Positions 1 through 64,000 of a DNA stretch of 64,000 nucleotides are shown here, one piece after another. The notes beneath the pieces were generated by a model, which ran no database searches, was not told where the DNA came from, and saw nothing but the letters and a program-made list of their open reading frames with translations. The position numbers and the translations under genes are program-made. The DNA is taken from the UHGV virus genome UHGV-1579991. One strand, given 5' to 3'. Every line of letters starts with the position of its first letter. Position 1 is the first letter of the stretch. The DNA comes from a virus.

Positions 1-2068
1 CCATCAATGCTGCAAGTGCACCAGTTACAACTGCAAGTGCTGCACCAGCTTTGCTCATGTCTTCCCAATCAAGCAATTTATATGGCAACATTGCAATGCC
101 AAGAATGCCGACTGCTGCAGCCATGACAACAACACCAGTAGCAATTGACATAACTTGTTTGCTATCTTTTGCAACTCTTGTCATTACTGCGAAAATCGTA
201 GCAAGTACGCCGATGCCAAGCGCAGCTTTACCCATGTCTTCCCACTCGACAATTCGCCAAGCAAATATGCTAAGTGCAAGTACGCCAACCGCTGCAGACA
301 TTGCAAGCACGCCTAAGCCAAGCTTTTGCATATCGCCATCTTTGCCAGCAAGATGATTTGCGCCAGCCATTGCCAATGCAAGTGTAGTGATTGTTATTGC
401 AGGCGCAAATGCATATGTGTAATCAGGGATGAGTTCGTGCCAAGCCCAAATTGACAATGCAAGCACCGCTATTGAACCTGCAATCATCATCATTTGAGCA
501 CCAATGCCACCCTTGAGATTTGAGCCCTCTGTCTGCATTTTGCTGAACGCTTCGGCATTACCTTTGCCAGCAAGCGTCATACCAAGACCTGCGCCTGCAG
601 ATGATATGCCATTTGCAAAGCCGATTGCAAGACCCAATGCAACAATGACACCAAAGATTAAGCCAACAGATTCCCAGCTTGCTTCCATCAATTCACCTGC
701 AGCAACCACTGCAAGCACAAACAGAGCAATTGAACCTGACAGCATCAACATTTCTTTGCCCACTGCATTCTGCTGTCCTTTCTTGCCGCCGCCTGAACCA
801 AACAGCGATTCACCAGACAACGCCTTGCCAAGTACCCAGATTGCTCCGCTAACTGCAAGCAAAGCAACTGAACCCATAACAACACCGCCCCACGACACAT
901 TACTAAACAGCATCATTGACAATGCTACCATGCTAAGTGCGCCTGCAATCATCATGACATTCTTTGCACCAGCTGATGCATCTTTGTCAGTAATTTTGCC
1001 AATTGCCCAATATGCTGCAATGAATGTCAATGTGCCAAGCGTGAACATTCCAAGAGCTTCAAATGTCACAAGTTGACCAAATGACCATATTGTAAGACCC
1101 ACAAGAGCAATTGCTGCAGCAGCTTTCATGACAACCTCTGTCGTTCTATCAAGAGATGCCACAAGTGATTCAACTTGGCTGACCATGTCAGCCACTGCAG
1201 TCATTGACTCTTTATGAGATTTCAGAGTTTCAGCAGCATTCAAATACGAATCGACAAGCTTATTCAAGGCAGCCTCAAATCTTGGAGCAGCCTTTTCAAG
1301 CCTGTCGACAATCAAATCGATAGCTTCAAGACCGCTTTCAAGCTGCAACCGTTTGACAGGCGACATATTTGTCAAAGAGTCAATGATTGTCGCAAAAGCA
1401 GTAGCTATCGTGCCCATTTTTGGGTCAATGTTGGGCGCATTGCTTGCATTGGCCTTGATGTTTGCGATTGAGTCTTTTTCTTGACGTTCTGCAATGACGT
1501 CTGCAAATGTTGTCAGGTCATCAAGTTTTGATGACATCAATGCAAAGATGTTGCGTTGATTTTCCTCGATAACTTCAAGATAGACTCTTACAAGATCGCA
1601 ATGTTGTGTAAATTCAGTATGTTGTGATTCAACATGCTCTGCAATCACATCAAGCAAAACAGAAGCATCTGATATGTTTGTTGCAGCAGCTTTGTTTTCA
1701 ATATGCTCTGCAATGATTTCGAGCAATGCGTTTGTGTCAGACAATAATGCAGATACTGATGTTGCTGAAGATGATTCGTCTGTTTGCAGTTCAGATATGA
1801 TTTGAGCAAGACCTGCAAACATATTTGTTTCTGCACTCGAATCTTTTTCTTTCCATGATTGATACAAAACTGCACCAACAGTTGAGCACAATGACGCAAC
1901 AATAGTGTCATTGCCAACAATTGACATGAAAGTGTTTTCAAGCTTTGTCAGCTCATCATCACTGACATCAGTCGAAGATGCTAACGATGTGTCAGCATCT
2001 TCGAACTCTTGCCAGTTTGTTGGCTTGTCGCCTGTAGAATCATAGACGTTTGTTTTGTCTTCAGCCAT
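1..2068 (-). CDS. Partial CDS (C-terminal part runs off the window start): long protein with acidic helical N-terminal region followed by many hydrophobic segments and internal repeats; putative virion/tail tape-measure-like or membrane-interacting structural protein
   Basis: Minus-strand frame translates without stops from ATG at 2068-2066 (MAEDKTNVYDSTGDK...) to position 1; repeated units such as ...LSIFAWRIVEWEDMGKAALGIGVLATIFAVM... and ...AMLPYKLLDWEDMSKAGAALAVVTGALAALM...; plus-strand ORFs here are antisense artefacts. Confidence 0.45.
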   Translation of the reverse strand, partial: MAEDKTNVYDSTGDKPTNWQEFEDADTSLASSTDVSDDELTKLENTFMSIVGNDTIVASLCSTVGAVLYQSWKEKDSSAETNMFAGLAQIISELQTDESSSATSVSALLSDTNALLEIIAEHIENKAAATNISDASVLLDVIAEHVESQHTEFTQHCDLVRVYLEVIEENQRNIFALMSSKLDDLTTFADVIAERQEKDSIANIKANASNAPNIDPKMGTIATAFATIIDSLTNMSPVKRLQLESGLEAIDLIVDRLEKAAPRFEAALNKLVDSYLNAAETLKSHKESMTAVADMVSQVESLVASLDRTTEVVMKAAAAIALVGLTIWSFGQLVTFEALGMFTLGTLTFIAAYWAIGKITDKDASAGAKNVMMIAGALSMVALSMMLFSNVSWGGVVMGSVALLAVSGAIWVLGKALSGESLFGSGGGKKGQQNAVGKEMLMLSGSIALFVLAVVAAGELMEASWESVGLIFGVIVALGLAIGFANGISSAGAGLGMTLAGKGNAEAFSKMQTEGSNLKGGIGAQMMMIAGSIAVLALSIWAWHELIPDYTYAFAPAITITTLALAMAGANHLAGKDGDMQKLGLGVLAMSAAVGVLALSIFAWRIVEWEDMGKAALGIGVLATIFAVMTRVAKDSKQVMSIATGVVVMAAAVGILGIAMLPYKLLDWEDMSKAGAALAVVTGALAALM

Positions 2069-2077
2069 AGTGTATCA

Positions 2078-2332
2078 TCAGAACTTTGGCAGTTCAAAAT
2101 TGTTGTTGAACTTTGGCATTGGCAGACTTGTTGGCATCATTGACTTTGCTTTGCGCATATATGCGTCTTGCTGAGCCTTGATACTTTTCTGAGTACTGCC
2201 TTGCGAATCGCCATCGCCTTTTCGAGCTTCTTCTTCAGTTTTGATAAGCTCAAGTACATCATCCAACAGCCATTGATATTCATAGTATGGCAATGCGTCC
2301 AATTCAGAAAACTGAAGAGGGCATTTTTGCAT
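2078..2332 (-). CDS. Small hypothetical protein (internal Met start chosen to avoid overlap with upstream gene)
   Basis: ORF 2078-2476; N-terminal portion overlaps 2349-3371 gene, so start placed at MQKCPLQF... Confidence 0.3.
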   Translation of the reverse strand: MQKCPLQFSELDALPYYEYQWLLDDVLELIKTEEEARKGDGDSQGSTQKSIKAQQDAYMRKAKSMMPTSLPMPKFNNNFELPKF

Positions 2333-2348
2333 GATGTATATGCGATTC

Positions 2349-3371
2349 TTACAAAAGTTCCGATTCGAGATTTTGAACTGGTTGAAAAATCTGCTTGATT
2401 CCCTCTGGAAATCGAAACGGGGCTTCACCCTCCATGTGACACTTCGGGCAAGTGAACTTGATATTGTTAGATGCAAGAATCATGCACTTAGACAAAATCT
2501 TCAGTTTAAGCGGCAATTCTTTGAATGCATCCATTGCTTGGAACGACTGACAAATTTGCTCAGCTTTCTTGACATTAAGACCTCGCCAATCAGGTGTAAG
2601 CCACTGAGCTGCAAGAATATATGTCTTTGCATTCATCAATGTGTCTTTGTCAAGTGTTCGCATGTACTCTGCAAAAACTTTGCCAACGCCGATTGTCGAT
2701 GGCTTGAGTACAAGTTCGCCATACGAACGAGTTTGAACTCGATAGCAGCCGGTTTCAGAATCAATGTACTTGTCCATTGACTCATCGGGCTCATCCCAAG
2801 TCATGTTATCAGCAGTCAAGTCAAGCTTAAAATTATGCTTGCAAGTGCCTGATGAAATTTCCAGCGTAATTGGATTTGTCAGCTCAGAGTTCTCAGGGAA
2901 TGTGAGGTCGTGAATCAACATTATTAAGCGCCACTTGTCATGTTCGTATATATCATCAACTGACCAATGATTCATACCAGACTTGCTGACACATCGAACA
3001 CATACCTTGACAATGTCGTTCAAATATGTTGCTGCTTCAGCTGGATTTGCATTGTCATCAAGATTTGACCAGTGACGAATTTCACCTGCTCGGCAAGCTC
3101 GATAGATAATTTGCAAATCACTTGGGTACAGTCGGCCTTGCTTAGCAAGCTTCGTCATGTCAACATTGAACCAGCCAGTATCTGTAACTTCTGATTGACG
3201 CGCTCTTTCTGCAATGCGCTCTTGAGCTACTTCAGTTGCAGCGTCAATTGCGCTGTCATTGATTTTTGTAGCTGCTTCAGCTTCTTCTACTGCAGATGCA
3301 AGTGGATTGTTTCGACCTGCATTCTCACCACCATCTGCTGGAATGCTAAGACGTTTTCTTTCTTGTGGCAT
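2349..3371 (-). CDS. Hypothetical protein, 340 aa, C-terminal Cys/His cluster (FTCPKCH)
   Basis: Long ORF with codon usage typical of the window; no recognisable catalytic motif. Confidence 0.5.
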   Translation of the reverse strand: MPQERKRLSIPADGGENAGRNNPLASAVEEAEAATKINDSAIDAATEVAQERIAERARQSEVTDTGWFNVDMTKLAKQGRLYPSDLQIIYRACRAGEIRHWSNLDDNANPAEAATYLNDIVKVCVRCVSKSGMNHWSVDDIYEHDKWRLIMLIHDLTFPENSELTNPITLEISSGTCKHNFKLDLTADNMTWDEPDESMDKYIDSETGCYRVQTRSYGELVLKPSTIGVGKVFAEYMRTLDKDTLMNAKTYILAAQWLTPDWRGLNVKKAEQICQSFQAMDAFKELPLKLKILSKCMILASNNIKFTCPKCHMEGEAPFRFPEGIKQIFQPVQNLESELL

Positions 3372-3444: not shown

Positions 3445-4719
3445 TTATATATTTGACAGCTGTTTGCGTTGCAAAATTGCATGACCGCAGTCATATACTG
3501 CAACATAACCTGCATCAATCATCTCTTGCTCATTTTGTCCGCAGTCTTCAATATGTTCTTTTGTCTTTAAATGACACCAGTGTTTGCGAATTGTTGACTT
3601 GTCATCTGACAGTTGCGGATTAAGTGCGAAGTTAGTTGAGTCTACTGGTTCACCTGCAAGATGCTTTCGAATGACATCAATGACTTCATTGTCATCCATC
3701 CATTCGAATATTGTAATGCAAGTGTAGCCAAGCTTAAGAGCAAGCTGAGTTTTGTCGAAGTGATAGAATTTGCTAACATGCTTATTGTGTGTAGTACGGC
3801 CAATTAAATATGCAAAACCATATGTTGAATTGTGTGACCAAGTTGGATTGATTTCAATCAATAATTTGCAATGTTCATTACTGTAATTGAGGTCATATGA
3901 CCATCGCTCAAGATTGACATCATCAAGCCCACAATCAATCCCAAGTTCTTGCAGCAATTTGTCATGCCACCAATGGTTTGCTCGTGATTTTACATGACCT
4001 TGAGCATCACGACATTTAGCAGTCATACAAAAATATGGGACACCATAGCGTTGCATGTTAGTTGACGCAATTTTTTGCAAATCGCCTGCAGCAGACCCAT
4101 ATTTTTGTCGTTTTGTTGCAACTGCTACTGCAATATTGCCAAATTTGTTGCCATATCGTTTCTGTTTAGTTTCAAGTGCTTTGTCAATATTTATGATGCC
4201 TCTTGTACCATGTTCTTTTTCACGTTTAGCTAAAATTGTTTGCATGTCGCCAAGTTTGTTGCCATATCGTTGCAATTTAGTTTCATGCATTTTTGCAATA
4301 TTTGTCCAACTATCACCATAATGTTGTCTATGTGTTGCAGCGCAACGTGCTTTGTCACCAAACATGTGTCCAAACTTTGCTAAACGACGCTCAACAAATT
4401 TTTGCATGTCACCCATGCCATTACCATATCGTTTCTGCTTAGTTGCAACAGCCTTTTGCATATTGACACCTCGATAGCCATAACGCATTTCTATTGTTGT
4501 AGTAATTTTATCACTGATGACTTTTGATTGCTGAGCATACTCAAAACCATATTTACGCAAGCAGCCAATTCGCTTATTATATTTCAAACGAATTTTACCA
4601 TGTGATGTCTTCTTTGGGCCATACCATTCATATGGCGTTTCTGCAATCAATTTATCACGTTCAGCTTCAAGTTCTTTTATTCGAGCTTCAAGAGCTTCAC
4701 CTATTAATTGTGTTGCCAT
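3445..4719 (-). CDS. Free-standing homing-endonuclease-like protein (family A): N-terminal coiled coil, tandem YG-repeats, C-terminal PD-(D/E)xK-like nuclease core
   Basis: N-term GEALEARIKELEAERD; repeats KQKRYGNGMGD / LQRYGNKLGD / KQKRYGNKFGN; C-term LLIEINPTWSHN...GYTCITIFEW; paralogs at 16935-18126 and 60966-62027. Confidence 0.5.
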   Translation of the reverse strand: MATQLIGEALEARIKELEAERDKLIAETPYEWYGPKKTSHGKIRLKYNKRIGCLRKYGFEYAQQSKVISDKITTTIEMRYGYRGVNMQKAVATKQKRYGNGMGDMQKFVERRLAKFGHMFGDKARCAATHRQHYGDSWTNIAKMHETKLQRYGNKLGDMQTILAKREKEHGTRGIINIDKALETKQKRYGNKFGNIAVAVATKRQKYGSAAGDLQKIASTNMQRYGVPYFCMTAKCRDAQGHVKSRANHWWHDKLLQELGIDCGLDDVNLERWSYDLNYSNEHCKLLIEINPTWSHNSTYGFAYLIGRTTHNKHVSKFYHFDKTQLALKLGYTCITIFEWMDDNEVIDVIRKHLAGEPVDSTNFALNPQLSDDKSTIRKHWCHLKTKEHIEDCGQNEQEMIDAGYVAVYDCGHAILQRKQLSNI

Positions 4720-4778: not shown

Positions 4779-6770
4779 ATGTCTGAAGTTAAGCATCAAG
4801 TATATGACCCTGTAGCACAATTCAAATCTGCAGAAGAAAAGGAAGCTGCAAGAGTCGTGTGGTGTTCAGAAAGTGTGCGTCGTGCATATGCAGCAGTTGA
4901 CCAAGGCCTGCCATTACGGTCGAATCCCTGGTTCTTTGGCAATATTGCATTGCGTAAGCCAGGACTATTGTATAGATACTCTGACGTAGAGCTACGTGAA
5001 TGGCTTAGATGTGCTTATGATATACTGTACTTTGCCAACACATACGCTACACTCATGACACCTGCAGGTGTGCGAATGCATATTACGTTGCGACCATATC
5101 AGAAAAAAATGCTTCGTGCGTATCAAAAGCAAAAGTACATTATAAGTTTGTGTGGACGACAAATAGGCAAAACTACGACTGCTGCAATTTTCCTCGCTTG
5201 GGCTGTCATTTTCAATCGTGAGCTCAACATAGCAGTACTTGGCGACCGCTTGGCTACATCAAGTGAAAACCTGAACAAAACAAAAGACATCATAAACAAT
5301 CTGCCATTCTTTATGAAGCCTGGTGTGTTTGTTTGGAATGGTGGAATGGTCGCATTTGACAATGGCTGCAAAATTATCACAGGTACTGCTCAAAAGTCAT
5401 CACTTGTCGGTAAAACAATTCACATCTTGTATCTTGATGAGCTCGCAATTCCGCCTGCTCAGCAATCAAAGACTCTTGTAGACTATGCATTGCCCACAAT
5501 TGCATCATTGCCAACTGGCAAAGTTATCGTAACATCTACGCCATCTGGTGATAATGTGTTCAAGACTTTGTGGCTTGGTGCAATTAACAAAACAAATGGA
5601 TTCTTTCCAATTCAAGTAAACTGGTGGGACATTCCAGGTCGTGATGAAAAGTGGAAAGCTGAACAAATTGCAATTCTTGGTGAAGATGCTTTCAATGAGC
5701 AATACAACTGCGTGTTCTTGTCAGGTGCAACGTCAATTTTCAATTCAAGAGCAATTGATGATATTGCAAGACGACAACAAAAGTATGAATTTGTTGCTGA
5801 TGAGCGTCTTGAATCGCTGCTCAGATTTTTCATTGCTGATTCAGATGTTGGCACTGAACCTGAGCCGCATTCATTTATGACTTGGCGTGCAGATATTGAC
5901 CCAGCGACACTCAAAAATGAAACATGTATCATCAACATCGACATCGCTGAAGGCTTATCTGGCGACTTTTCTGTCATACATGTGCATCGTATAGTTGACA
6001 TTGCAAAAGATGCTGAACTTGAACTTGATGCAAGCAATCTGTATGATATGTTTGACGATGACAAAAAATCATTGTTTGCAAAAGCAGTTGAAATGCAACG
6101 TCAAATGTCGGCAACACAAGCTCAAGATGATGACGATGATGACGATGACGACTGGTTTGGCGCAGACGATGATGTTGCTCAAGGAGTCGATGCATATCAA
6201 GATTATGCGAATGCTGCAGTAGAAGAGATTGGCTTGTGGCGCTCAAATGTGACGTCAATTAAAGTCATGGCTCTGTATTTGCAGTTCTTAATGACATATG
6301 TGTTTGACGCAAACAAAACAAAGATTATCTATGAACGCAACAAATATGGTGGAGAGTTTCGTTCATATTGTTTGTCTGAACGTGCACGCAATATTGCAAT
6401 TGATGAAGAGAGCTTCGTAAGCTTCCAACGAACTCTTGGTTCAGAACAACTTGCACCAGGCTGTTCAATTACGCCTGGCACCAAACCAGTGTACGTAAGA
6501 CAGCTCAAAGACCTTATTGAAACTGGCAAGATTCTTGAAAACAATGCAGATACGCAAAGAGAGCTTACATACTTTGGCGGTGTCAAAGGCAAGAATGGTC
6601 ATGTGTCATATCAGGCATCACCAGGCTTCCATGATGACATTGCAATGACTCTTGTATCTCTTGCAGCATTTATGGACACTCGATGCAACGATTGGCTTGA
6701 ACTGCTTGATGTGTTCTACAATGGCAGCAGTCAAACAAGTTCTGATGATGACGATGATGACTGGATTTGA
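4779..6770 (+). CDS. Terminase large subunit (T4 gp17-like)
   Basis: Walker A CGRQIGKTT, Walker B ILYLDELA, overall resemblance to gp17 ATPase region; ATG at 4779; unusual poly-Asp tracts (DDDDDDDDDW and C-terminal DDDDDDWI). Confidence 0.85.
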   Translation: MSEVKHQVYDPVAQFKSAEEKEAARVVWCSESVRRAYAAVDQGLPLRSNPWFFGNIALRKPGLLYRYSDVELREWLRCAYDILYFANTYATLMTPAGVRMHITLRPYQKKMLRAYQKQKYIISLCGRQIGKTTTAAIFLAWAVIFNRELNIAVLGDRLATSSENLNKTKDIINNLPFFMKPGVFVWNGGMVAFDNGCKIITGTAQKSSLVGKTIHILYLDELAIPPAQQSKTLVDYALPTIASLPTGKVIVTSTPSGDNVFKTLWLGAINKTNGFFPIQVNWWDIPGRDEKWKAEQIAILGEDAFNEQYNCVFLSGATSIFNSRAIDDIARRQQKYEFVADERLESLLRFFIADSDVGTEPEPHSFMTWRADIDPATLKNETCIINIDIAEGLSGDFSVIHVHRIVDIAKDAELELDASNLYDMFDDDKKSLFAKAVEMQRQMSATQAQDDDDDDDDDWFGADDDVAQGVDAYQDYANAAVEEIGLWRSNVTSIKVMALYLQFLMTYVFDANKTKIIYERNKYGGEFRSYCLSERARNIAIDEESFVSFQRTLGSEQLAPGCSITPGTKPVYVRQLKDLIETGKILENNADTQRELTYFGGVKGKNGHVSYQASPGFHDDIAMTLVSLAAFMDTRCNDWLELLDVFYNGSSQTSSDDDDDDWI

Positions 6771-28883: not shown

Positions 28884-29260
28884 GCAAATATATTTTTGTT
28901 TGTATATGTACATAAAAGAGCAAGTTCTCCACATTGAGAACTTGCTCAGCTGACCTGTTACCAGGTGAAAGCGTGGTGCAGCACCTTGTGCTGCAATGGC
29001 TATGCTGCCATCGCCATAACGGGCTGAGCATTGCCCAGCATCATTACACGACCAGCTGCATTAAGCGTACGCTTTGCTTTGTTGAAAAATTTGCCAGTTA
29101 TCTGGTATCTGCACATCTATTCAAGCGACCTACTATGCAATCAAATGCCTGTCGAGCCCAATGTTTGAGCAGTTGTTTGTCAGATGCTCAGCTGACTGCA
29201 GTCTTTCTGAGTGTATCAAGTTCAGCGATTCTGCATCTTTGCTAAATGGCAATGGTTCAG

Positions 29261-29341
29261 GTGGACTCGCCGAGAATCGAACTCGGGTCTTACATAGCGC
29301 ATCCTTGACTTGGTCCTGTAAACAGGGTTGTCAACATGCAT
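29261..29341 (-). other. tRNA-like element: clean T-arm and 3' acceptor strand, no matching 5' acceptor strand found
   Basis: Minus-strand ccgag-TTCGATT-ctcgg then cgagtcc-a; upstream sequence does not supply GGACTCG-type partner. Confidence 0.25.
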
Positions 29342-29412
29342 TGCAATACGACAGGACTCGAACCTGCGACCTCGGATTGGACGTCCGCGCTCTTACCGCT
29401 GAGCTACGTATT
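29342..29412 (-). tRNA. tRNA, isotype ambiguous (anticodon region reads CGTCCAAT: UCC/Gly with G33, or CCA/Trp with poor stem)
   Basis: Acceptor GAATACG/CGTATTG (1:72 mismatch), D-arm GCTC-AGCGGTAA-GAGC, T-arm GCAGG-TTCGAGT-CCTGT. Confidence 0.55.
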
Positions 29413-29506
29413 CTTATCAATTGACTGCACTGCAATGCAATCAATCGTGCCAATGATATTTGACACGCATAATTGCAGTTATGCGTAACAATTCAAATGT
29501 CATTTG

Positions 29507-29579
29507 AGCCAACTGCAGGAATCGAACCTGTAACCTGCTGAGTACAAATCAGCTGCTCTACCAATTGAGCTAAGTTGGC
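29507..29579 (-). tRNA. tRNA-Thr (anticodon TGT)
   Basis: Acceptor GCCAACT/AGTTGGC, D-arm GCTC-AATTGGTA-GAGC, anticodon stem GCTGA/TCAGC, loop TTTGTAC, T-loop TTCGATT. Confidence 0.75.
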
Positions 29580-29661
29580 ATAAAGTCGTTGGGCCATTGC
29601 AACCCAAACCTATCATCTTTGCCTAACCAAAGATGCAAGCGCTCTCTTACACCACGACTTG

Positions 29662-29733
29662 TAGCCGAACTTGGAGTCGAACCAAGCTTTCGAGAATGAA
29701 AATCTCGCGTCCTAACCGATAGACGAAACGGCC
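29662..29733 (-). tRNA. tRNA-Glu-like (anticodon TTC), acceptor stem irregular
   Basis: Anticodon stem CGAGA/TCTCG, loop TTTTCAT, T-arm CTTGG-TTCGACT-CCAAG; acceptor GGCCGTT vs TTCGGCT has mismatches at 6:67 and 7:66. Confidence 0.5.
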
Positions 29734-29916
29734 AAGAGCAGTTCAAGTCTGCAGCATTGAACTGCGGAAACAATGCCTGTACGGGCAACCAATTGTGCAG
29801 ATACAGCGACATTGCAAAATCACACCGAACCAAGTTTGTGGCTCTTCTGTCTCATAAAAACAAGTAATCATTACACTTGGCACCAATGATTTTGATGTAA
29901 AAATCGGTGTGTTACG

Positions 29917-30001
29917 CGGAGAGTAAGGGATTCGAACCCCTGGTACGTTGCCGTACAGTGGTTTTCAAGACCACCGCCATCGACCGCTCGGCCAACTCTC
30001 C
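29917..30001 (-). tRNA. tRNA-Ser (anticodon TGA), long variable arm
   Basis: Acceptor GGAGAGT/ACTCTCC, anticodon stem GTGGT/ACCAC, loop CTTGAAA, variable arm GTACG-GCAA-CGTAC, T-loop TTCGAAT. Confidence 0.75.
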
Positions 30002-30194
30002 ATAAAACATTGCATAAGCATTCTTATCTCTTGATGAGGCCAAGTAGCTAATTTGGCAAGTTTGTTATATCTATCGTGACTGTTGCAGTTTGTTGTCACT
30101 CAATACACAAAACTTTCGAACATTCATTGACAACACTGCAATATCGCTTTTTAAGCTCAGCCATCAATGTATTTATGCAATGTATAACAATTCG

Positions 30195-30276
30195 TAGCCA
30201 AACCGGGACTTGAACCCAGACTCCTAATGGAACAACATTTTGAGTGTTGCGTGTCTACCAATTCCACCATTTGGCC
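30195..30276 (-). tRNA. tRNA-Leu (anticodon CAA), long variable arm
   Basis: Acceptor GGCCAAA/TTTGGCT, anticodon stem CAACA/TGTTG, loop CTCAAAA, T-loop TTCAAGT. Confidence 0.7.
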
Positions 30277-30373
30277 ATTTGCAAATGCAAGCTGTTTCAC
30301 AACTGTTTGCATTTGCATTTGCATTGTTTAACACACTAAAATATGATTCATCTAATCAAAAACCAGAGAATTG

Positions 30374-30446
30374 TCGAGAATGTGCGATTTGAACGCCAAT
30401 TATACGTCCCAAACGTATCGTGTTACCGGATTACACTACATTCTCG
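30374..30446 (-). tRNA. tRNA-Pro (anticodon TGG)
   Basis: Acceptor CGAGAAT/ATTCTCG, anticodon stem ATACG/CGTAT, loop TTTGGGA, T-loop TTCAAAT (T-stem imperfect). Confidence 0.65.
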
Positions 30447-30453
30447 TTAATTG

Positions 30454-30524
30454 TTGAACTGTCTGGACTCGAACCAGAAATATATCATCCAAAGTGATAT
30501 GTGTTACCATTACACCACAGCTCA
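30454..30524 (-). tRNA. tRNA-Gln (anticodon TTG)
   Basis: Acceptor TGAGCTG/CAGTTCA, D-stem GTGT/ACAC, anticodon stem TATCA/TGATA, loop CTTTGGA, T-arm TCTGG-TTCGAGT-CCAGA. Confidence 0.75.
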
Positions 30525-41949: not shown

Positions 41950-44900
41950 TCAATTACATGCTGAATGTCCGCAGTTGGTGCATCGAACACAGCCGTCAAA
42001 CTTGACCATGTCACCACCGCATTCAGGACACTTTGCATACATCTTTGAGCCATCTTGAATGTGTAGTTTCAATGCGCGACCAATTGCTTTGCAGAATGTG
42101 CCAACAGATGCAAAGCTTTTTGCAGTTTGGTCGACAATTTCACCAAGGTCGATGCCATTGCGAAGCATCGTTGAGTACAGTCGAGTAATTGTTTGCTGCT
42201 CATCTGAACCAAGACGTTCTGAGATATTGTCATAGTGTTGCAAGAATGACAAATTATCACCAAGCTTGTAGTGCTTCTTATCAGTCTTTGTGATTGTCGT
42301 TTGTTCAATGCCTTGCAACTTGTCAAATTCGTCTTTGTCAAGTTCAAATGCAAAGATTTCATAGGGTCGACCATCATCACAACCTACAAGAATACACCAC
42401 TTACGCTTATACACTGATACACAATACACTGCAGCAGGCAATACAGGTTTTCGTTTTGAGCGATGACCAGACTGCAAGACATGCGACTTATCCTTAGACT
42501 GCTTATCATCTTTTACGAGAACACCTGCACGTGAGCCATCTCGATAAATTGTGCAACCCTTGCAGCCAGATTTCCATGCAGTCAGATAAATTTCACGAAC
42601 AAGCTCTTTTGTTGCAGAGTTTGGAATATTGACTGTTACAGAAATTGATGAGTCAATGTACTTTTGCAACGCGCCTTGCAGTTTAACCTTGCCAATCCAG
42701 TCAACATCTTCAGTAGTTGCCTTATAGTATGGTGATTGAACAAGCAATTCATCAATGACTGCTTGCGAAGCATTTGACAACCAAGCTTTGATACGAGACA
42801 TTTCTGCTTCTGACCATTCAATGCCAGTATCTTTGACAAGGGTGAATTTGTCATCACCAAGCTGCACTCGTTTGCAAATCCACTGCATCAATGGGTAGTG
42901 AACTACAGCGTATTCAATGAACTTGTCACCAGTAGTCTCATCAATGAAGTTGATGTCTGCTTCATTATCAACTGCAGTAGGCTTTCGACGACGTTTGTGC
43001 AGTGGCATAAAAACAGGTTCAATGCCAGAAGTTGTCTGAGTCATCAAAGCTGTGGTGCCAGTTGGCGCAATTGTTGTTGTGTTGATGTTTCGACGACCAA
43101 ATTGTTGATAAGTTGTGATGTGCTCATCATCAATCAGTTCAGATAACATACGCTGAATGAACTTTGACTGCACATCTGTGTCATAGTCGAATATTGCAAA
43201 TGAGCCACGAATCTCTGCCAAGTCAATTGACGCTTCATAAGTCGCCTTTACAAGCCATTGTTGCATAGTGACTGCGAAGTCAATTGACTCTTGTGAACCA
43301 TAGCGCAAGCCAAGCATTGCCATTGCATCGCCAAGTGCAAGAAAGCCCATGCCATATCGACGAGTATTTGTCAATTTGTCATAGACTTTATGCCACAAGT
43401 CAAGCTCAGTTTTCTTAATGTCAAATGATTCTTTGTCTGATTCAACCTTTGCAATGATTCGTTGAACTGCTTCAATTTCAAGCTGCACAAGGTCATCCAT
43501 GATGACTGCACAGTCATATGTATCTTTGTAGAATGCTTCAAAGTCAAATGATGCATCAGCAGTCCAAGGATTAAGCACATATGCAGTCAAATTGCGATGT
43601 GATAAAATGCAGCTTGCATATGCTGCAAGAGGCTGTTCACCGCACTGCCTGTTGTTTACAAATACTTGCATATGTCTGTCATTTGTATCATTGACAGCGT
43701 CAAATGACCCTACAAAAAAGTTGTGATAATCATCTACAGTGCCATTATACACATCTTCTACACCATCAAGTTCAACAGTGTGTACCCTATGATTGTAGTA
43801 ATCTGCAAACTGCTTAAACTTTCTGTATGACGCATGAATAGCAGCGTCAACATTGTTAGATTTGCATTCATTTGCAAATTCTTCATAATTTGGTCGTTTG
43901 CCAAGTTTTTGCTTTGCTGCAGTATATACAAGCACTTGTTCTTTAGACCATTTTGCTTGCTGAGCTGCGTGGCCGCATTCGGCAGAACAATATGCAACTT
44001 CTCTATAAAACCAGTGCGCCCAAAATTCAGAGCCGCAATGTTCGCAAATACGTTTAACATACACTTGTTTGTCAACAAATTTAGTGTCATAGCCCATATT
44101 GCGAACTTTAATTGCTGTTGCTATGCATCTGCTATCAATGCCAACTAAATCAGGATATTTAACATTAGCGCGCGTTGCACAATGACTTAAAAATGCATCA
44201 ATAGAGCCAAATGTTTCTACTAATTTATTGTACCTGTAGCCAGACCATGCAACAGTATTATTGCCTGGCGCATAGCGCATATAGTATTCTAATTCTTTGC
44301 GACTAAGGCCTCTTCCAACTTTTGCAGTGCATTGCGTAACATAGTCTACAATTGATTGCACAGTTGTATCAATATCATATCTGCCATTACGTTCACCAGA
44401 AGTAGATGCACTCATTTTAGCAGAATACTGTGCAAAACGTTCTGCATTTGCTTTAATTTTGTATATTGGATTGTTAGTGCCTCTACGTTCAAGTGCATGT
44501 AATGCATCATGCTCTTTTTTGCTTAGTACTTGTAAGTTATTTGGGTCATTGTTTAATGAATTGCCATCGATATGATGCACTACTGTGTGTGTAGCATCAA
44601 ACTGTTCAGCATGACAGTATTCTGCTATTAAACGATGCTCAAACTTATATACACCATTATTCAACACTGCATAATATGGTGCAGATTTGCTATTTGTTTG
44701 ATAGCTAAGCACTTCATCAAATGAACATTGTTGTCTTGCAATAATTGCTAAGCTATCACCATGCTGTAATTGTCGTGCTTCTTTGTATGTGCCATCTGTT
44801 AACTTAAACTTGTGATTACCTGTGCAACGAATAACATCACCAGAATCAAGTGTAACTTTGTATATTTGCACATTTGAGCCTGTTTTGCGTGGATGCCGCA

Positions 44901-45936
44901 TTTTGCGTACAACTACATTATTGTTGTCATCATAGCAATACACATTAACATCATCGCCAATATCTGCAAGTTCACGTATTGTCATTGTTTGTCTGCCATC
45001 AGCAAGCATAACTTTAGTGCTGCCAACAATGCATGGATTTGTTGAGCGCTCTTCATACATTTTACCGTATGCTTTCGAGTTCGACTCTTCCATAATGCGG
45101 TCCCAAAAGAACACGCCGGGTTCTGCAGATGCCCATACATTGTCAACAATTTTGTCAAATAATGCTTTTGCATCTGATGTCTTATGCAGCTCTTGGCCAT
45201 CAGAGCCACGCCAAATATGTTCAAACTGCTGTTCTGCAAGCACTGCACGCATAAATGCATCAGTAAGCTTGATGGAAATGTTTGCACCTGTGATTTTTGT
45301 CAAGTCTTTTTTTGCGTCAATGAACTTATCTGCATCAGGATGCTCAATTGACAATGACAACATCAATGCGCCACGCCTGCCATTTTGTGCAACTTCTTTT
45401 GTCGATGTTGAAAAGCGTTCCATAAATGACACGACACCAGACGTCGTAATAGCACTGTTATGTACTTCTACGCCTTCTGGGCGAATATGCGACAAATCAT
45501 GGCCAACACCACCACGACGTTTCATCAACTGAACTTGCTCTTCATCTGTTTTGAAGATGCCGCCATATGAATCTGCATCATTGCCTATTACATAGCAATT
45601 TGACATTGATGTGTAACCGCCAAGACCGATACCAGCCATTGGAGAACCACCAAGTACAAATCGCTTAAATGGCTCAAGCAAATATGCAAGTCGCTCTTTT
45701 GACAATACACGTTTGCCTGTCTGTTCTTCAAATTGTGATTCTATACGGTCAAATTCATTGACCCAGCGCTCATGCATATCAGACAATGAGTGTTCATACA
45801 AATTGTCTTTGTCATGATGCAAGTATTTTGACATGCATATGTCAGCAGCCATTGAGTCGCCCGTAAATTCATGCGTCAGTGTAGTGTGCACTTCAGCATA
45901 TTCAGGCGACCCAATTTGAATGGGACGTTTTGTCAT
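41950..45936 (-). CDS. nrdJ: Ribonucleotide reductase, class II (adenosylcobalamin-dependent, NrdJ-like), interrupted in-frame by an intein
   Basis: Start at MTKRP (ATG 45936-45934); extein motifs STNP...CGEQPL (reconstitutes NPCGE), TIYRDGSR, C-terminal CPECGG...CTNCG zinc ribbon; total ORF 1328 aa is far longer than a typical RNR. Confidence 0.75.
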   Translation of the reverse strand: MTKRPIQIGSPEYAEVHTTLTHEFTGDSMAADICMSKYLHHDKDNLYEHSLSDMHERWVNEFDRIESQFEEQTGKRVLSKERLAYLLEPFKRFVLGGSPMAGIGLGGYTSMSNCYVIGNDADSYGGIFKTDEEQVQLMKRRGGVGHDLSHIRPEGVEVHNSAITTSGVVSFMERFSTSTKEVAQNGRRGALMLSLSIEHPDADKFIDAKKDLTKITGANISIKLTDAFMRAVLAEQQFEHIWRGSDGQELHKTSDAKALFDKIVDNVWASAEPGVFFWDRIMEESNSKAYGKMYEERSTNPCIVGSTKVMLADGRQTMTIRELADIGDDVNVYCYDDNNNVVVRKMRHPRKTGSNVQIYKVTLDSGDVIRCTGNHKFKLTDGTYKEARQLQHGDSLAIIARQQCSFDEVLSYQTNSKSAPYYAVLNNGVYKFEHRLIAEYCHAEQFDATHTVVHHIDGNSLNNDPNNLQVLSKKEHDALHALERRGTNNPIYKIKANAERFAQYSAKMSASTSGERNGRYDIDTTVQSIVDYVTQCTAKVGRGLSRKELEYYMRYAPGNNTVAWSGYRYNKLVETFGSIDAFLSHCATRANVKYPDLVGIDSRCIATAIKVRNMGYDTKFVDKQVYVKRICEHCGSEFWAHWFYREVAYCSAECGHAAQQAKWSKEQVLVYTAAKQKLGKRPNYEEFANECKSNNVDAAIHASYRKFKQFADYYNHRVHTVELDGVEDVYNGTVDDYHNFFVGSFDAVNDTNDRHMQVFVNNRQCGEQPLAAYASCILSHRNLTAYVLNPWTADASFDFEAFYKDTYDCAVIMDDLVQLEIEAVQRIIAKVESDKESFDIKKTELDLWHKVYDKLTNTRRYGMGFLALGDAMAMLGLRYGSQESIDFAVTMQQWLVKATYEASIDLAEIRGSFAIFDYDTDVQSKFIQRMLSELIDDEHITTYQQFGRRNINTTTIAPTGTTALMTQTTSGIEPVFMPLHKRRRKPTAVDNEADINFIDETTGDKFIEYAVVHYPLMQWICKRVQLGDDKFTLVKDTGIEWSEAEMSRIKAWLSNASQAVIDELLVQSPYYKATTEDVDWIGKVKLQGALQKYIDSSISVTVNIPNSATKELVREIYLTAWKSGCKGCTIYRDGSRAGVLVKDDKQSKDKSHVLQSGHRSKRKPVLPAAVYCVSVYKRKWCILVGCDDGRPYEIFAFELDKDEFDKLQGIEQTTITKTDKKHYKLGDNLSFLQHYDNISERLGSDEQQTITRLYSTMLRNGIDLGEIVDQTAKSFASVGTFCKAIGRALKLHIQDGSKMYAKCPECGGDMVKFDGCVRCTNCGHSACN
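43645..45033 (-). mobile_element. Intein (about 463 aa) with Hint blocks and an HNH endonuclease domain, apparently ending in Gln
   Basis: Begins at Cys after STNP (CIVGSTKVMLADGRQTMTIRELADIGDD, block A); block B GNHKFKLTDG; HNH motif VVHHIDGNSLNNDPNNLQVLSKKEHDALH; zinc-finger-like CEHCGSEF...CSAECGH; block F VYNGTVDDYHNFFVG; ends ...VFVNNRQ immediately before CGEQ. Confidence 0.65.
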
Positions 45937-45973
45937 TGTAACAGTGCATTTAAGTGTTTTAACAGTTTTATGT

Positions 45974-46007
45974 ATAAATTGTACAACAATGGGCAAAATT
46001 TTGCATC
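45974..46007 (-). promoter_or_regulatory. Promoter-like conserved motif containing TTGTACAA upstream of RNR
   Basis: Minus-strand GATGCAAAATTTTGCCCATTGTTGTACAATTTATAC. Confidence 0.5.
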
Positions 46008-60965: not shown

Positions 60966-62027
60966 TTATTTTGTATTGCTACGCGTCATTGTTAAATGAC
61001 CGCAATCATACACATCAACTTCTGTTTTGCCAAGCATACATGTATGACAATTTATTTTGAAATCTGCTGCAGTGTAATCAGGATAGTTTAGCGGAGATTC
61101 TTTTGACAAATCAATTTCAATTGTGTCAGTAGTTTTAAGTTGTTCAGTGCCTGCAATGATATCTGCAATAAGATTGATAACTTCTTCTTGTGAATCCCAA
61201 TCAAACACAGTTATGCAACGATAGCCTGCATCAAGTGCAAGTTTTGTTTTGTTGTAATGGTATTGAGCACCAATAACATTGTTGTCTTTTGCTCGACCAG
61301 TTAAATATGCAAAACTAACAGTGCAGTTGTGCGTAACTGTTGGACAAATTTCTATAAGTAACTTTGCAGGCTCATACTGCAAATCATATGTTTGATTATT
61401 GATGTTAAACTCGTACTGTGTATCAATTGCCAACTGTCGTAATAACGCATCATGCCACATCATATTACATTTAGAAATTGTTTTGGATGACAATCTGCAT
61501 TGCGGCAATTGACATGGCCAATCTACGCCGTACATTTGTTGTGTTGTTTGACGCATTTTGTTAACATCACCAAAATGATTGCCATATCGATGCTCTTTGG
61601 TTTTAAGCGACTGCTCAATATTGACATTGCCTACACAACCATAACGTTCAAGTTTTGTTGCAGCAGTTTTGCTAACATCACCATGCCCATTGCCAAATTT
61701 GGCGACTTTAGTTGCAAGTATTTTATGACTTGGGCCAAATGCATTGCCATACAATTCTTGTTTAGTCGCAAGCATTTTGTCGATATTACAACCAGCGCCA
61801 TAAGTGTTATGCATAGTTTGCATACGTTGTCGAATAAATTTTGGCACAGATAAAGGACTTTCTACACCATATTTGCGTAAGCAACTGATTTTGCATGCGT
61901 ACTTTTGCTTGATGACAGAATGTGCATTTCGACGTCCTATGTAAGTGTTTTCTGATGTAGCAGCAAGCTCTGCATCTCTAAGAACTTCAAGTGCAGCAAT
62001 TCGTGCTTCAATTTCTTCAGATGTCAT
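60966..62027 (-). CDS. Free-standing homing-endonuclease-like protein (family A paralog)
   Basis: N-term EEIEARIAALEVLRD, YG repeats (ELYGNAFG, ERYGCVGN, HRYGNHFGD), C-term LLIEICPTVTHN...GYRCITVFDWD. Confidence 0.5.
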   Translation of the reverse strand: MTSEEIEARIAALEVLRDAELAATSENTYIGRRNAHSVIKQKYACKISCLRKYGVESPLSVPKFIRQRMQTMHNTYGAGCNIDKMLATKQELYGNAFGPSHKILATKVAKFGNGHGDVSKTAATKLERYGCVGNVNIEQSLKTKEHRYGNHFGDVNKMRQTTQQMYGVDWPCQLPQCRLSSKTISKCNMMWHDALLRQLAIDTQYEFNINNQTYDLQYEPAKLLIEICPTVTHNCTVSFAYLTGRAKDNNVIGAQYHYNKTKLALDAGYRCITVFDWDSQEEVINLIADIIAGTEQLKTTDTIEIDLSKESPLNYPDYTAADFKINCHTCMLGKTEVDVYDCGHLTMTRSNTK

Positions 62028-62040
62028 TTTTTATCATATT

Positions 62041-62085
62041 GATAATTGTACAACATGCAAATGGCGTTTGCATTTGATGCAACAA
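62041..62085 (-). promoter_or_regulatory. Promoter/operator element shared by homing-endonuclease genes
   Basis: Minus-strand GCAAACGCCATTTGCATGTTGTACAATTATCAATATG. Confidence 0.5.
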
Positions 62086-62113
62086 TGACTTAGCTTGTAC
62101 AGTTTGCAAAAAA

Positions 62114-62144
62114 GAACCGCTTGCAATCTAATTGCAAGCGGTTC
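62114..62144 (-). terminator. Rho-independent terminator downstream of capsid gene
   Basis: 14-bp stem gaaccgcttgcaat/attgcaagcggttc followed on minus strand by TTTTTT. Confidence 0.7.
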
Positions 62145-62373
62145 AATGAATACGTTTGTCAGAAACTGTCAATGGTGCAATCGCTTGAAGAGTTAGCTGA
62201 ACAACTTGTTGATGCGATTGCTGCATTGGTGACTACCAAGCAGCCCATTGAACATTGGATTCGACATCAACGTCTTTGTGGTTGTTGTTAAACTCCCCAA
62301 GCCAGCAAGTATCATTTAGCAAGTTTCCAAACTTAACGTACTTGTCGTTCCCCGGCTTGGGTGGCGCAGGTTG

Positions 62374-63957: not shown

Positions 63958-64000
63958 ATACTGAACGTTCTGAGCGATTGATGCGAGCAGATACTTCTTA

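What the first reader, a model, noticed from the sequence alone, without database searches (positions are those of the whole stretch)
1..2068. Partial structural protein with tandem TM-helix repeats
The minus-strand gene running off the window start has an acidic N-terminal third and then at least eight hydrophobic segments arranged as repeats, including two nearly identical units separated by about 45 aa (…WEDMGKAALGIGVLA… / …WEDMSKAGAALAVVT…). Such repeat organisation suits a tape-measure or ejection protein whose length may be functionally tuned.
Basis: seen in the sequence. Interest (0 to 1): 0.35.

Follow-up and report, generated by a model that had tools for sequence, protein, structure and literature searches.

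The report
Jumbo-phage tail tape measure gene
This is the first 689 codons of a 1,240-codon tail tape-measure gene from an uncultured jumbo phage; its repeated hydrophobic helix pairs are a module that ordinary phage tape-measure proteins also carry, so the finding is real but ordinary.

Summary
A minus-strand ORF starts at ATG 2068 and runs off the window start (689 codons). Residues 1-200 are acidic (net -28). Residues 312-689 hold 12 hydrophobic helices arranged as six diverged copies of a two-helix unit (about 47 aa, period about 58 aa). This is far beyond chance: the unit profile finds 47 units in seven relatives and none in composition-matched shuffles. "Nearly identical" is overstated, because the two WEDM units are only 33% identical.

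A 98%-identical metagenomic orthologue supplies the full gene: 1,240 aa with nine units.
- The hairpin array aligns with the equivalent array of proteins carrying Pfam TMP_3 (hhalign probability 99.9%, E 2e-34).
- 20 of 26 long distant hits carry TMP_3, and none matches a transporter family.
- In relatives the gene order is sheath, tube-like, 340-aa, 84-aa, this gene, large downstream tail proteins.
- The MA9V-1 and MA9V-2 orthologue (1,082 aa, 162 nm at 1.5 Å per residue) fits their measured tails of 170 and 166 nm.
- Copy number varies in the family: 5-9 hairpin units and 1-3 C-terminal modules.

It is a divergent, so far unannotated member of a known class. Interest is low.

The parts
1..2068 (-). 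5' 56% (aa 1-689 of 1,240) of the tail tape measure protein gene; the C-terminal 551 aa lie beyond the window start
   Evidence: Translation. A 98%-identical full-length orthologue, P0001, is 1,240 aa. PHROG 4372 match. hhalign against TMP_3-bearing proteins.
1136..2068 (-). N-terminal soluble region, predicted helical and acidic (aa 1-311). It includes the conserved start motif ...GDKPTNxxxFED and SxVGAxIxQSWK.
   Evidence: Net charge -28 in aa 1-200 and -31 up to the first hairpin. Conserved motifs appear in the A1 and A2 consensus. The AF2 readout is all helix but at low confidence.
1478..1726 (-). Three copies of a short motif, (L/F)(L/A)(E/D)(I/V)IAE(H/R)xE, at aa 115, 138 and 188 (nt 1697-1726, 1628-1657, 1478-1507)
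   Evidence: DNA repeat family D2, 83% and 63% identical to the reference copy. Protein motif search.
995..1135 (-). Hydrophobic helix-hairpin unit 1 (aa 312-358)
   Evidence: Unit profile, E 5.6e-12.
824..967 (-). Hairpin unit 2 (aa 368-415)
   Evidence: Unit profile, E 5e-11.
611..760 (-). Hairpin unit 3 (aa 437-486), turn motif ELMEASWES
   Evidence: Unit profile, E 2.4e-12.
353..502 (-). Hairpin unit 4 (aa 523-572), LALSIWAWHELIPD; the best-conserved unit in the family
   Evidence: Unit profile, E 1.3e-18. 36% identity to MA9V1_009 from here onward.
176..319 (-). Hairpin unit 5 (aa 584-631), turn VEWEDMGKA
   Evidence: Unit profile, E 3.1e-16. DNA repeat D8 copy at 223-247.
2..142 (-). Hairpin unit 6 (aa 643-689), turn LDWEDMSKA; cut by the window edge
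   Evidence: Unit profile, E 1.7e-13. DNA repeat D8 copy at 46-70.
2078..2332 (-). 84-aa ORF immediately upstream; conserved partner of the tape-measure gene (MA9V1_007, PAU gp94 region, L010 93-aa). Candidate small tail-assembly protein, function not shown.
   Evidence: tblastn. Gene call on L007. Start and stop read directly.
2349..3371 (-). 340-aa ORF, conserved second gene upstream (MA9V1_006, PAU gp93, PTm1 ORF-022; phrog_36717, unknown function)

Best explanation
[quoted passage not shown] Its nearest cultured relatives are Chryseobacterium phages MA9V-1 and MA9V-2, phage PAU and Tenacibaculum phage PTm1, all of which infect Bacteroidota.

The complete protein (1,240 aa in a 98%-identical orthologue) has three parts:
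- an acidic helical N-terminal region;
- nine tandem copies of a hydrophobic helix-turn-helix unit of about 58 aa, six of them in the window, with acidic Trp-containing turns and basic inter-unit linkers;
- a soluble C-terminal part with one repeat module of about 88 aa and a conserved C-terminal tail.

Inferred mechanism, by analogy with studied TMPs. During assembly, several copies lie extended inside the tail tube and set its length at about 1.5 Å per residue, which predicts a tail of about 186 nm. The C-terminus would be anchored at the baseplate hub and the N-terminus would lie near the head. After sheath contraction the protein is expelled, and its hydrophobic hairpins insert into the host cytoplasmic membrane to help form the DNA conduit. 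Gain or loss of whole hairpin units or C-terminal modules is the route by which length changes in this family.

Shown here: the ORF, the repeats, homology to TMPs, synteny, and repeat copy-number variation. Inferred: the ruler role in this particular phage, presence in the virion, and membrane insertion.
For: Homology. PHROG 4372 'tail length tape measure protein' matches at E 1.6e-10 for the window fragment and 1.4e-10 for full-length P0001. Exhaustive phmmer gives 50 hits. Beyond the immediate family most are proteins of 1,000-2,564 aa, matched in their central region. Of 26 such proteins, 20 carry Pfam TMP_3 and none matches a transporter family. P0012, P0014 and P0024 score 510-1,723 bits on PHROG 4372.

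Shared repeat. Those TMPs contain the same periodic unit, for example P0023 and P0047 at steps of about 58-59 aa. Their consensus motif is WExIGKGL, against WEDMGKA here. hhalign of family against TMPs gives probability 99.9%, E 2e-34 over 402 columns.

Synteny. The order is 340-aa gene, 84-aa gene, this gene, 1,267-aa gene, then a fibre-like gene. It is conserved in MA9V-1, MA9V-2, PAU, L008 and L010. In MA9V, PAU and L010 the tail sheath lies just upstream, and a 184-194-aa protein lies between the sheath and the 340-aa gene, in the position expected of a tube protein.

Ruler arithmetic. MA9V1_009 and MA9V2_061 are 1,082 aa, or 162 nm, against measured tails of about 170 nm (PMC10537231) and about 166 nm (PMC13414440).

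Modular length variation. The family holds 5-9 hairpin units and 1-3 C-terminal modules, with totals of 893-1,318 aa.

Secondary structure is predicted almost entirely helical (low confidence).

Charge asymmetry fits membrane hairpins: turns hold 80 D/E against 25 K/R, and linkers hold 73 K/R against 33 D/E.

Literature. Predicted TM segments are common in TMPs, and T4 gp29 is reported to form the inner-membrane channel (bioRxiv 10.64898/2026.03.06.709160). The TP901-1 TMP has two hydrophobic regions of three putative TM segments each, and its length scales linearly with tail length (PMC5099701).
Against: No curated model recognises the protein. Pfam and NCBIfam give nothing, and the N-terminal TMP_3 domain of the distant relatives is absent.

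The detectable similarity to annotated TMPs is confined to the hydrophobic repeat array. Low-complexity, repetitive sequence can inflate profile scores.

In this window the gene is not flanked by sheath and tube genes. A homing-endonuclease-like ORF and the terminase follow the 340-aa gene, and no sheath or tube homologue exists in the 64 kb.

There are no virion proteomics for any family member. GenBank calls the orthologues 'hypothetical protein', 'gp97' or 'ubiquitin-like proteins'.

The AF2 model is unusable (pLDDT 33.8), and no PDB relative is found by sequence.

In TP901-1 one of the two hydrophobic regions is dispensable for infection, and its authors favoured a chaperone-binding role (PMC5099701). 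Membrane insertion therefore remains an inference.
Confidence: 0.85

Rival explanations
1. The identity is the same (a TMP), but the hairpins have a different role. They would not be transmembrane segments. They would be sites coated by tail-assembly chaperones, or the self-packing core of the bundle inside the tube, with no part in membrane penetration.
For: In TP901-1, deleting the second hydrophobic region had little effect on infectivity, and the authors favoured chaperone recruitment (PMC5099701). Two small-to-medium conserved genes of unknown function sit directly upstream, where chaperone genes normally lie. The ruler arithmetic in MA9V (162 nm against 166-170 nm) needs the hydrophobic region to be extended in the virion, not folded into hairpins.
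Against: Each helix is 18-25 residues with a Kyte-Doolittle mean of 1.6-2.4. Turns are acidic and linkers basic across 47 units. T4 gp29 work assigns its TM segment to the membrane channel (bioRxiv 10.64898/2026.03.06.709160). The two roles are not mutually exclusive.
Confidence: 0.3
2. It is a virion-borne ejection or pore protein that travels through the tail but is not the length ruler. Another protein, for example the 1,267-aa downstream product, would measure the tail.
For: The N- and C-terminal regions have no homology to any named TMP domain. The downstream genes are large and unannotated.
Against: The hairpin array is homologous to the central part of TMP_3-bearing TMPs. The length of the MA9V orthologue fits the measured tails. 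From a partial read and a composition count, the 1,267-aa neighbour is Cys-containing and compositionally mixed, unlike a helical ruler. Gene position after the tube-like gene and two small genes is the classical TMP slot.
Confidence: 0.08
3. It is a non-structural multi-pass membrane protein of the infected cell, such as a transporter, a superinfection-exclusion factor or a lysis factor.
For: There are 12 strongly hydrophobic helices in the window and 18 in the full protein.
Against: The window fragment, P0001 and the tested orthologues match no family in Pfam or NCBIfam, and 26 distant hits match no transporter family in Pfam. Soluble helical regions of 312 aa at the N-terminus and about 380 aa at the C-terminus flank the array. 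The gene is embedded in a co-oriented tail gene block. The hit list from 1.8 billion proteins is dominated by TMPs although ordinary membrane proteins vastly outnumber them.
Confidence: 0.03
4. The match to tape-measure proteins is a compositional artefact of Ala/Gly/Leu/Val-rich sequence, and the 'repeats' are just successive hydrophobic stretches.
For: The similarity is restricted to the hydrophobic region. tblastn with low-complexity masking found nothing. The word-indexed search returned 8,000 candidates and no significant hit.
Against: Composition-matched shuffles give 0 unit hits against 47 real ones, and reversed sequences give 3 weak ones. Register-specific motifs (LALSIWAW, (D/E)WE(D/E)MxKA) and a constant period of 57-60 aa recur in both families. 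20 of 26 distant hits carry an independent TMP_3 domain elsewhere in the chain.
Confidence: 0.03

Closest known systems
Tape measure proteins carrying Pfam TMP_3 (PF20155) / PHROG 4372 (1,500-2,500 aa, from uncultured phages and prophages)
   Same: The central tandem array of hydrophobic helix hairpins with a period of about 58 aa and a Trp-Glu turn motif (WExIGKGL against WEDMGKA). hhalign probability 99.9% over 402 columns.
   Different: This protein lacks the N-terminal TMP_3 domain. It has unrelated N- and C-terminal regions, is shorter (1,240 aa), and belongs to a jumbo contractile-tailed lineage.
MA9V1_009 and MA9V2_061 (Chryseobacterium phages MA9V-1 and MA9V-2), PAU gp97, PTm1 ORF-027 plus ORF-028; all deposited as hypothetical, 'gp97' or 'ubiquitin-like'
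   Same: Collinear orthologues with an N-terminal helical region, a hairpin array and C-terminal modules of about 88 aa. The neighbours are the same.
   Different: They have 5 hairpin units instead of 9 and 2 C-terminal modules instead of 1. Their N-termini are neutral rather than strongly acidic. Identity is 21-36%. In those phages the sheath and a tube-like gene sit directly upstream, whereas here the block is interrupted after the 340-aa gene.
Phage T4 gp29 (myovirus TMP)
   Same: A contractile-tail ruler with an N-terminal coiled coil, a predicted TM segment and a C-terminal end at the baseplate. It is reported to form the inner-membrane channel (bioRxiv 10.64898/2026.03.06.709160). This is the functional analogue for the mechanism proposed here.
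   Different: The preprint describes gp29 residues up to 590 and a single TM segment (residues 207-246). None of my profile searches returned a family named for gp29; I made no direct comparison with gp29.
Lactococcus phage TP901-1 TMP (siphovirus)
   Same: Hydrophobic regions with several putative TM segments, internal repeats, and a linear relation between protein length and tail length (PMC5099701).
   Different: It has two regions of three segments each and repeats of 11 or 18 aa, rather than nine helix-pair units of about 58 aa. It belongs to a non-contractile tail.

Membership tests
Tail tape measure protein (functional class) | Encoded in the tail morphogenesis block, after the sheath and tube genes and small assembly genes, and before the baseplate and fibre genes | tested here: met
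   The order is sheath, 184-194-aa tube-position protein, 340/355-aa, 84/93-aa, this gene, 1,267/1,335-aa, fibre-like. It is seen in L010, MA9V and PAU. In the window itself only the 340-aa and 84-aa genes are present upstream, and the sheath and tube lie elsewhere.
Tail tape measure protein (functional class) | Protein length proportional to tail length (about 1.5 Å per residue) | tested here: met
   Tested for the orthologues only. 1,082 aa gives 162 nm, against tails of about 170 nm for MA9V-1 (PMC10537231) and about 166 nm for MA9V-2 (PMC13414440). It cannot be tested for this uncultured phage, where the prediction is about 186 nm.
Tail tape measure protein (functional class) | Predominantly alpha-helical, extended chain | tested here: inconclusive
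   The AF2 secondary-structure readout is almost all helix, but mean pLDDT is 33.8, so no tertiary information is usable. The PDB profile search hits only designed coiled coils.
Tail tape measure protein (functional class) | Sequence homology to recognised TMPs | tested here: met
   PHROG 4372 at E 1.6e-10. 20 of 26 distant phmmer hits carry TMP_3. hhalign probability 99.9%, E 2e-34. The homology is limited to the hairpin array.
Tail tape measure protein (functional class) | Present in the virion, inside the tail tube | not testable with these tools
   No proteomics or cryo-EM for any family member was found. The MA9V-1 paper reports only SDS-PAGE bands.
Tail tape measure protein (functional class) | Upstream chaperone gene pair linked by a programmed frameshift (lambda G/GT type) | tested here: inconclusive
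   The frame of the 84-aa ORF stays open 49-68 codons upstream, in the +1 frame over the end of the 340-aa gene, in 4 lineages. However, there is no shared slippery site, the ORF has its own ATG, and the closest relative aligns from Met1.
Pfam TMP_3 (PF20155) | N-terminal TMP_3 domain scoring above the gathering threshold (41 bits) | tested here: not met
   No Pfam hit for the window fragment, P0001, P0003, MA9V1_009 or PAU gp97.
PHROG 4372 (tail length tape measure protein) | Match along most of the 1,681-position profile | tested here: not met
   Only profile positions 717-898 match for the window fragment and 670-1050 for P0001, which is the hairpin array alone. True members match positions 1-1546.
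PAU/MA9V-type large tail protein family (unnamed; P0001-P0005, P0008, P0009, P0011, gp97) | Collinear three-part architecture with conserved neighbours | tested here: met
   Alignments A1 and A2, unit counts and synteny.
NCBIfam tape-measure models | Any NCBIfam model at E <= 0.01 | tested here: not met
   The scan of the whole library returned no family for the window fragment, P0001, P0003, MA9V1_009 or PAU gp97.

The most novel reading that the evidence does not exclude
The nine-unit hairpin array gives 18 hydrophobic helices per chain, or 54-108 per tail if 3-6 copies are present. It could be a modular, charge-polarised membrane conduit whose unit number is selected for its own sake, for example for the envelope of Bacteroidota hosts or for passing a genome above 200 kb. 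Each 58-aa unit (about 8.7 nm extended) would then also act as a quantised length increment of roughly two tube rings. On this reading one repeat serves both as ruler increment and as pore staves, which has not been demonstrated for any TMP.
Probability: 0.12. Interest if true: 0.5.

Novelty: new member of a known kind. Interest (0 to 1): 0.2.

Why it matters
It assigns the tape-measure role to a gene family left as 'hypothetical protein' in the PAU, MA9V and PTm1 group of Bacteroidota jumbo phages and in at least 130 metagenomic copies.

It also shows that a hydrophobic helix-hairpin repeat of about 58 aa, with a Trp-Glu turn, is shared by very distant tape-measure proteins but is not captured by any Pfam or NCBIfam model. 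That helps annotation and gives a clean system for testing, in culturable MA9V phages, whether TMP hydrophobic repeats act in the membrane, in assembly, or both. It does not change how tail length determination or DNA delivery is understood.

Tried and rejected
(1) tblastn of the fragment against the phage collection with low-complexity masking found nothing. The same search run locally without masking found MA9V and PAU orthologues.

(2) The word-indexed search of 5.8 billion proteins returned 8,000 candidates and no significant hit. My guess is that hydrophobic words saturated the candidate list. The exhaustive HMMER search succeeded.

(3) AlphaFold2 on the 689-aa fragment with a 9-sequence alignment gave pLDDT 33.8. 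I therefore ran no fold search, since matches would be meaningless.

(4) PDB sequence and profile searches gave only designed coiled coils and chance hits. The neighbouring 1,267-aa and 340-aa proteins also gave nothing.

(5) A lambda G/GT-style programmed frameshift between the 340-aa and 84-aa genes was considered, because the +1 frame is open in four lineages. It is not supported.

(6) A recent tandem duplication was considered as the origin of the WEDM units. It is rejected, because DNA similarity is limited to 25 nt and protein identity is 33%.

(8) The PTm1 virion paper is not in the library.
Full report
**What is in the sequence**

On the minus strand an ATG at 2068 opens a frame that stays open for 689 codons to the window edge. 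It begins 10 nt after the stop of an 84-aa ORF (2078-2332). That ORF in turn follows a 340-aa ORF (2349-3371), so the three genes are co-oriented and tightly packed.

Residues 1-200 are strongly acidic: 19.5% D+E against 5.5% K+R, net -28. From residue 312 onward, 69% of residues are A/G/V/L/I/M/F. A Kyte-Doolittle 19-residue scan, together with the helices in the AF2 readout, gives twelve hydrophobic helices up to the window edge.

**The repeats are real**

The twelve helices are six copies of a two-helix unit. Each unit is a first helix of about 20 aa, a turn rich in Trp and acidic residues, a second helix of about 18 aa, and a short basic or Gly linker. The units lie at aa 312-358, 368-415, 437-486, 523-572, 584-631 and 643-689.

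- Units 5 and 6 align with score 101, against 36.4 +/- 5.6 (maximum 57) for shuffles.
- A profile iterated over seven family proteins finds 47 units. It finds none in five composition-preserving shuffles and three weak ones in reversed sequences.
- Turns carry 80 D/E against 25 K/R. Linkers carry 73 K/R against 33 D/E.

The two WEDM units are 33% identical, and other unit pairs are 10-35% identical. At DNA level only 25 nt match at 88%. Tandem Repeats Finder sees nothing at this period. The array is therefore old.

A second, shorter motif, LL(E/D)(I/V)IAEHxE, occurs three times in the acidic region.

**The full gene**

An exhaustive HMMER search of 1.84 billion representatives found P0001, which is 1,240 aa and 98% identical over residues 1-689, with 15 substitutions. 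It lies on a 26-kb metagenomic contig, L007, with the same gene order as the window. Its 90% cluster has 15 members, some on contigs of 124-181 kb.

The complete protein has nine hairpin units (aa 313-859). These are followed by a conserved GNPFT motif, one module of about 88 aa containing FPKYEARNGELV, and a conserved C-terminal tail.

**What it is related to**

Curated libraries are silent: Pfam and NCBIfam give nothing. PHROGs gives one family, 4372 'tail length tape measure protein', at E 1.6e-10.

The close family consists of P0002-P0005, P0009, P0011, P0008 (1,082 aa, with hairpin units at nearly the same coordinates as MA9V1_009), MA9V2_061, PAU gp97, and PTm1 ORF-027 plus ORF-028. All members share the three-part architecture.

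Beyond that family most phmmer hits are proteins of 1,000-2,564 aa, matched in their central regions.

- 20 of 26 of them carry Pfam TMP_3, and none matches a transporter family.
- Three tested examples score 510-1,723 bits on PHROG 4372.
- They contain the same unit at the same period of about 58-59 aa.
- Their consensus shows a recurring WExIGKGL turn, the counterpart of WEDMGKA here.
- Profile-profile alignment of the two families gives probability 99.9%, E 2e-34 over 402 columns.

The dominance of TMPs in the hit list, the shared register and motif, and the shuffle controls together argue against a purely compositional match.

**Genomic context**

The window is a jumbo-phage segment:
- a T4-type large terminase (4779-6770), 41% identical to that of Chryseobacterium phage MA9V-1 and 29-32% identical to that of phage PAU by tblastn;
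- DHFR, NAD-dependent ligase, clamp loader, topoisomerase II, ribonucleotide reductase and a major-head-like protein;
- seven tRNAs.

The nearest cultured relatives all infect Bacteroidota. PAU's host was reclassified as Sphingobacterium (PMC3738902).

In MA9V-1, MA9V-2, PAU and the metagenomic relative L010 the order is tail sheath, a 184-194-aa protein, the 340-aa homologue, the small ORF, this gene, a protein of about 1,300 aa, then a fibre-like protein. I take the 184-194-aa protein to be the tail tube from its position alone. The shorter contig L008 shows the same order from the 194-aa protein onward. This is the classical slot for a myovirus tape measure gene.

In the window the block is broken after the 340-aa gene. 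A homing-endonuclease-like ORF and the terminase follow, and no sheath or tube homologue occurs in the 64 kb.

**Ruler arithmetic**

The MA9V orthologues are 1,082 aa, which at 1.5 Å per residue is 162 nm. Measured tails are about 170 nm for MA9V-1 (PMC10537231) and about 166 nm for MA9V-2 (PMC13414440). This agreement also implies that the hydrophobic region is extended in the virion rather than folded back.

The family varies from 893 to 1,318 aa by changing the N-terminal region, the number of hairpin units (5-9) and the number of C-terminal modules (1-3 full copies). That is the behaviour expected of a ruler. For this phage the prediction is a tail of about 186 nm.

**Mechanism**

Shown: the repeats, the homology, the synteny and the modular length variation.

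Inferred from studied TMPs: the protein lies in the tube lumen with its C-terminus at the baseplate hub, and is expelled on contraction. Its hydrophobic segments then enter the cytoplasmic membrane and contribute to the DNA channel. This has been reported for T4 gp29, and that work also states that predicted TM segments are common in TMPs (bioRxiv 10.64898/2026.03.06.709160).

The alternative is that the hydrophobic regions mainly recruit assembly chaperones. This was favoured for TP901-1, where one of the two hydrophobic regions is dispensable (PMC5099701). It cannot be excluded and is not exclusive of the membrane role.

Structure prediction gave no help: mean pLDDT was 33.8 and the readout was all helix. 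PDB searches found no relative.

**Verdict**

The protein is a divergent tape measure protein that current annotation does not recognise. Its hairpin repeat is a widespread TMP module that no Pfam or NCBIfam model detected in this protein or its close orthologues. This is useful for annotation but not surprising: a new member of a known kind, with interest about 0.2.

Noticed in passing
window 3445-4719 (-): A 424-aa ORF carries four copies of an (R/K)YG..G(D/N).. motif at aa 97, 151, 188 and 206. It has weak matches to DUF7487 (26.6 bits, just under the cut-off of 27) and to PHROG 3339 'homing endonuclease' (E 1.1e-5). It sits between the terminase and the tail genes, exactly where relatives carry the sheath and tube-like genes, so it may mark a rearrangement or a mobile insertion.
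   Followed up: partly
window 2332-2476 (-), overlapping the 3' end of the 340-aa gene: The reading frame of the 84-aa ORF stays open 49-68 codons upstream of its ATG. It runs in the +1 frame over the end of the preceding gene in the window, MA9V-1, PAU and PTm1. There is no shared slippery site, each lineage has its own in-frame start codon just past the upstream stop, and the closest relative aligns from Met1. A chaperone-type frameshift is therefore not supported, but the persistently open frame is unexplained.
   Followed up: partly
window 28909-29351 (-): ARAGORN calls a permuted tmRNA with a 31-residue tag next to the tRNA cluster, but Rfam at gathering threshold finds no tmRNA there, so it is probably a false positive. 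The seven tRNAs (Gly, Thr, Glu, Ser, Leu, Pro, Gln; 29343-30524) are confirmed by Rfam.
   Followed up: partly
window 41950-45996 (-): The ribonucleotide reductase large subunit (1,348 aa) has HNH-endonuclease matches inside it, at about aa 440-750, between RNR-matching segments. This suggests an intein or homing-endonuclease insertion.
   Followed up: no
window 4779-6770 (+): The large terminase carries a run of nine Asp at aa 450-458 and six Asp at aa 656-661 near the C-terminus, within acidic insertions.
   Followed up: no
window 62001-64000: GC content rises to 0.49 from about 0.40 elsewhere. This coincides with a 527-aa ORF (62374-63957, -) that matches PHROG 28442 (E 2e-118) and, weakly, a major head protein family.
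   Followed up: no
L006 (Tenacibaculum phage PTm1) 12544-15194: The PTm1 orthologue is annotated as two ORFs overlapping at TTGA. ORF-027 (391 aa) holds the hairpin units. ORF-028 (492 aa, deposited as 'ubiquitin-like proteins') holds the C-terminal modules. This is either a genuine split, a sequencing error or read-through, and the deposited product name looks wrong.
   Followed up: partly
L007 17575-20913 (gene two downstream of the tape-measure gene, outside the window): The 1,112-aa protein has an N-terminus homologous to MA9V1_016, which the MA9V-1 paper annotates as 'short tail fibre' (GenBank: hypothetical protein). It also has a sub-threshold BACON-domain hit (E 0.0011), which would fit a Bacteroidota host.
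   Followed up: no
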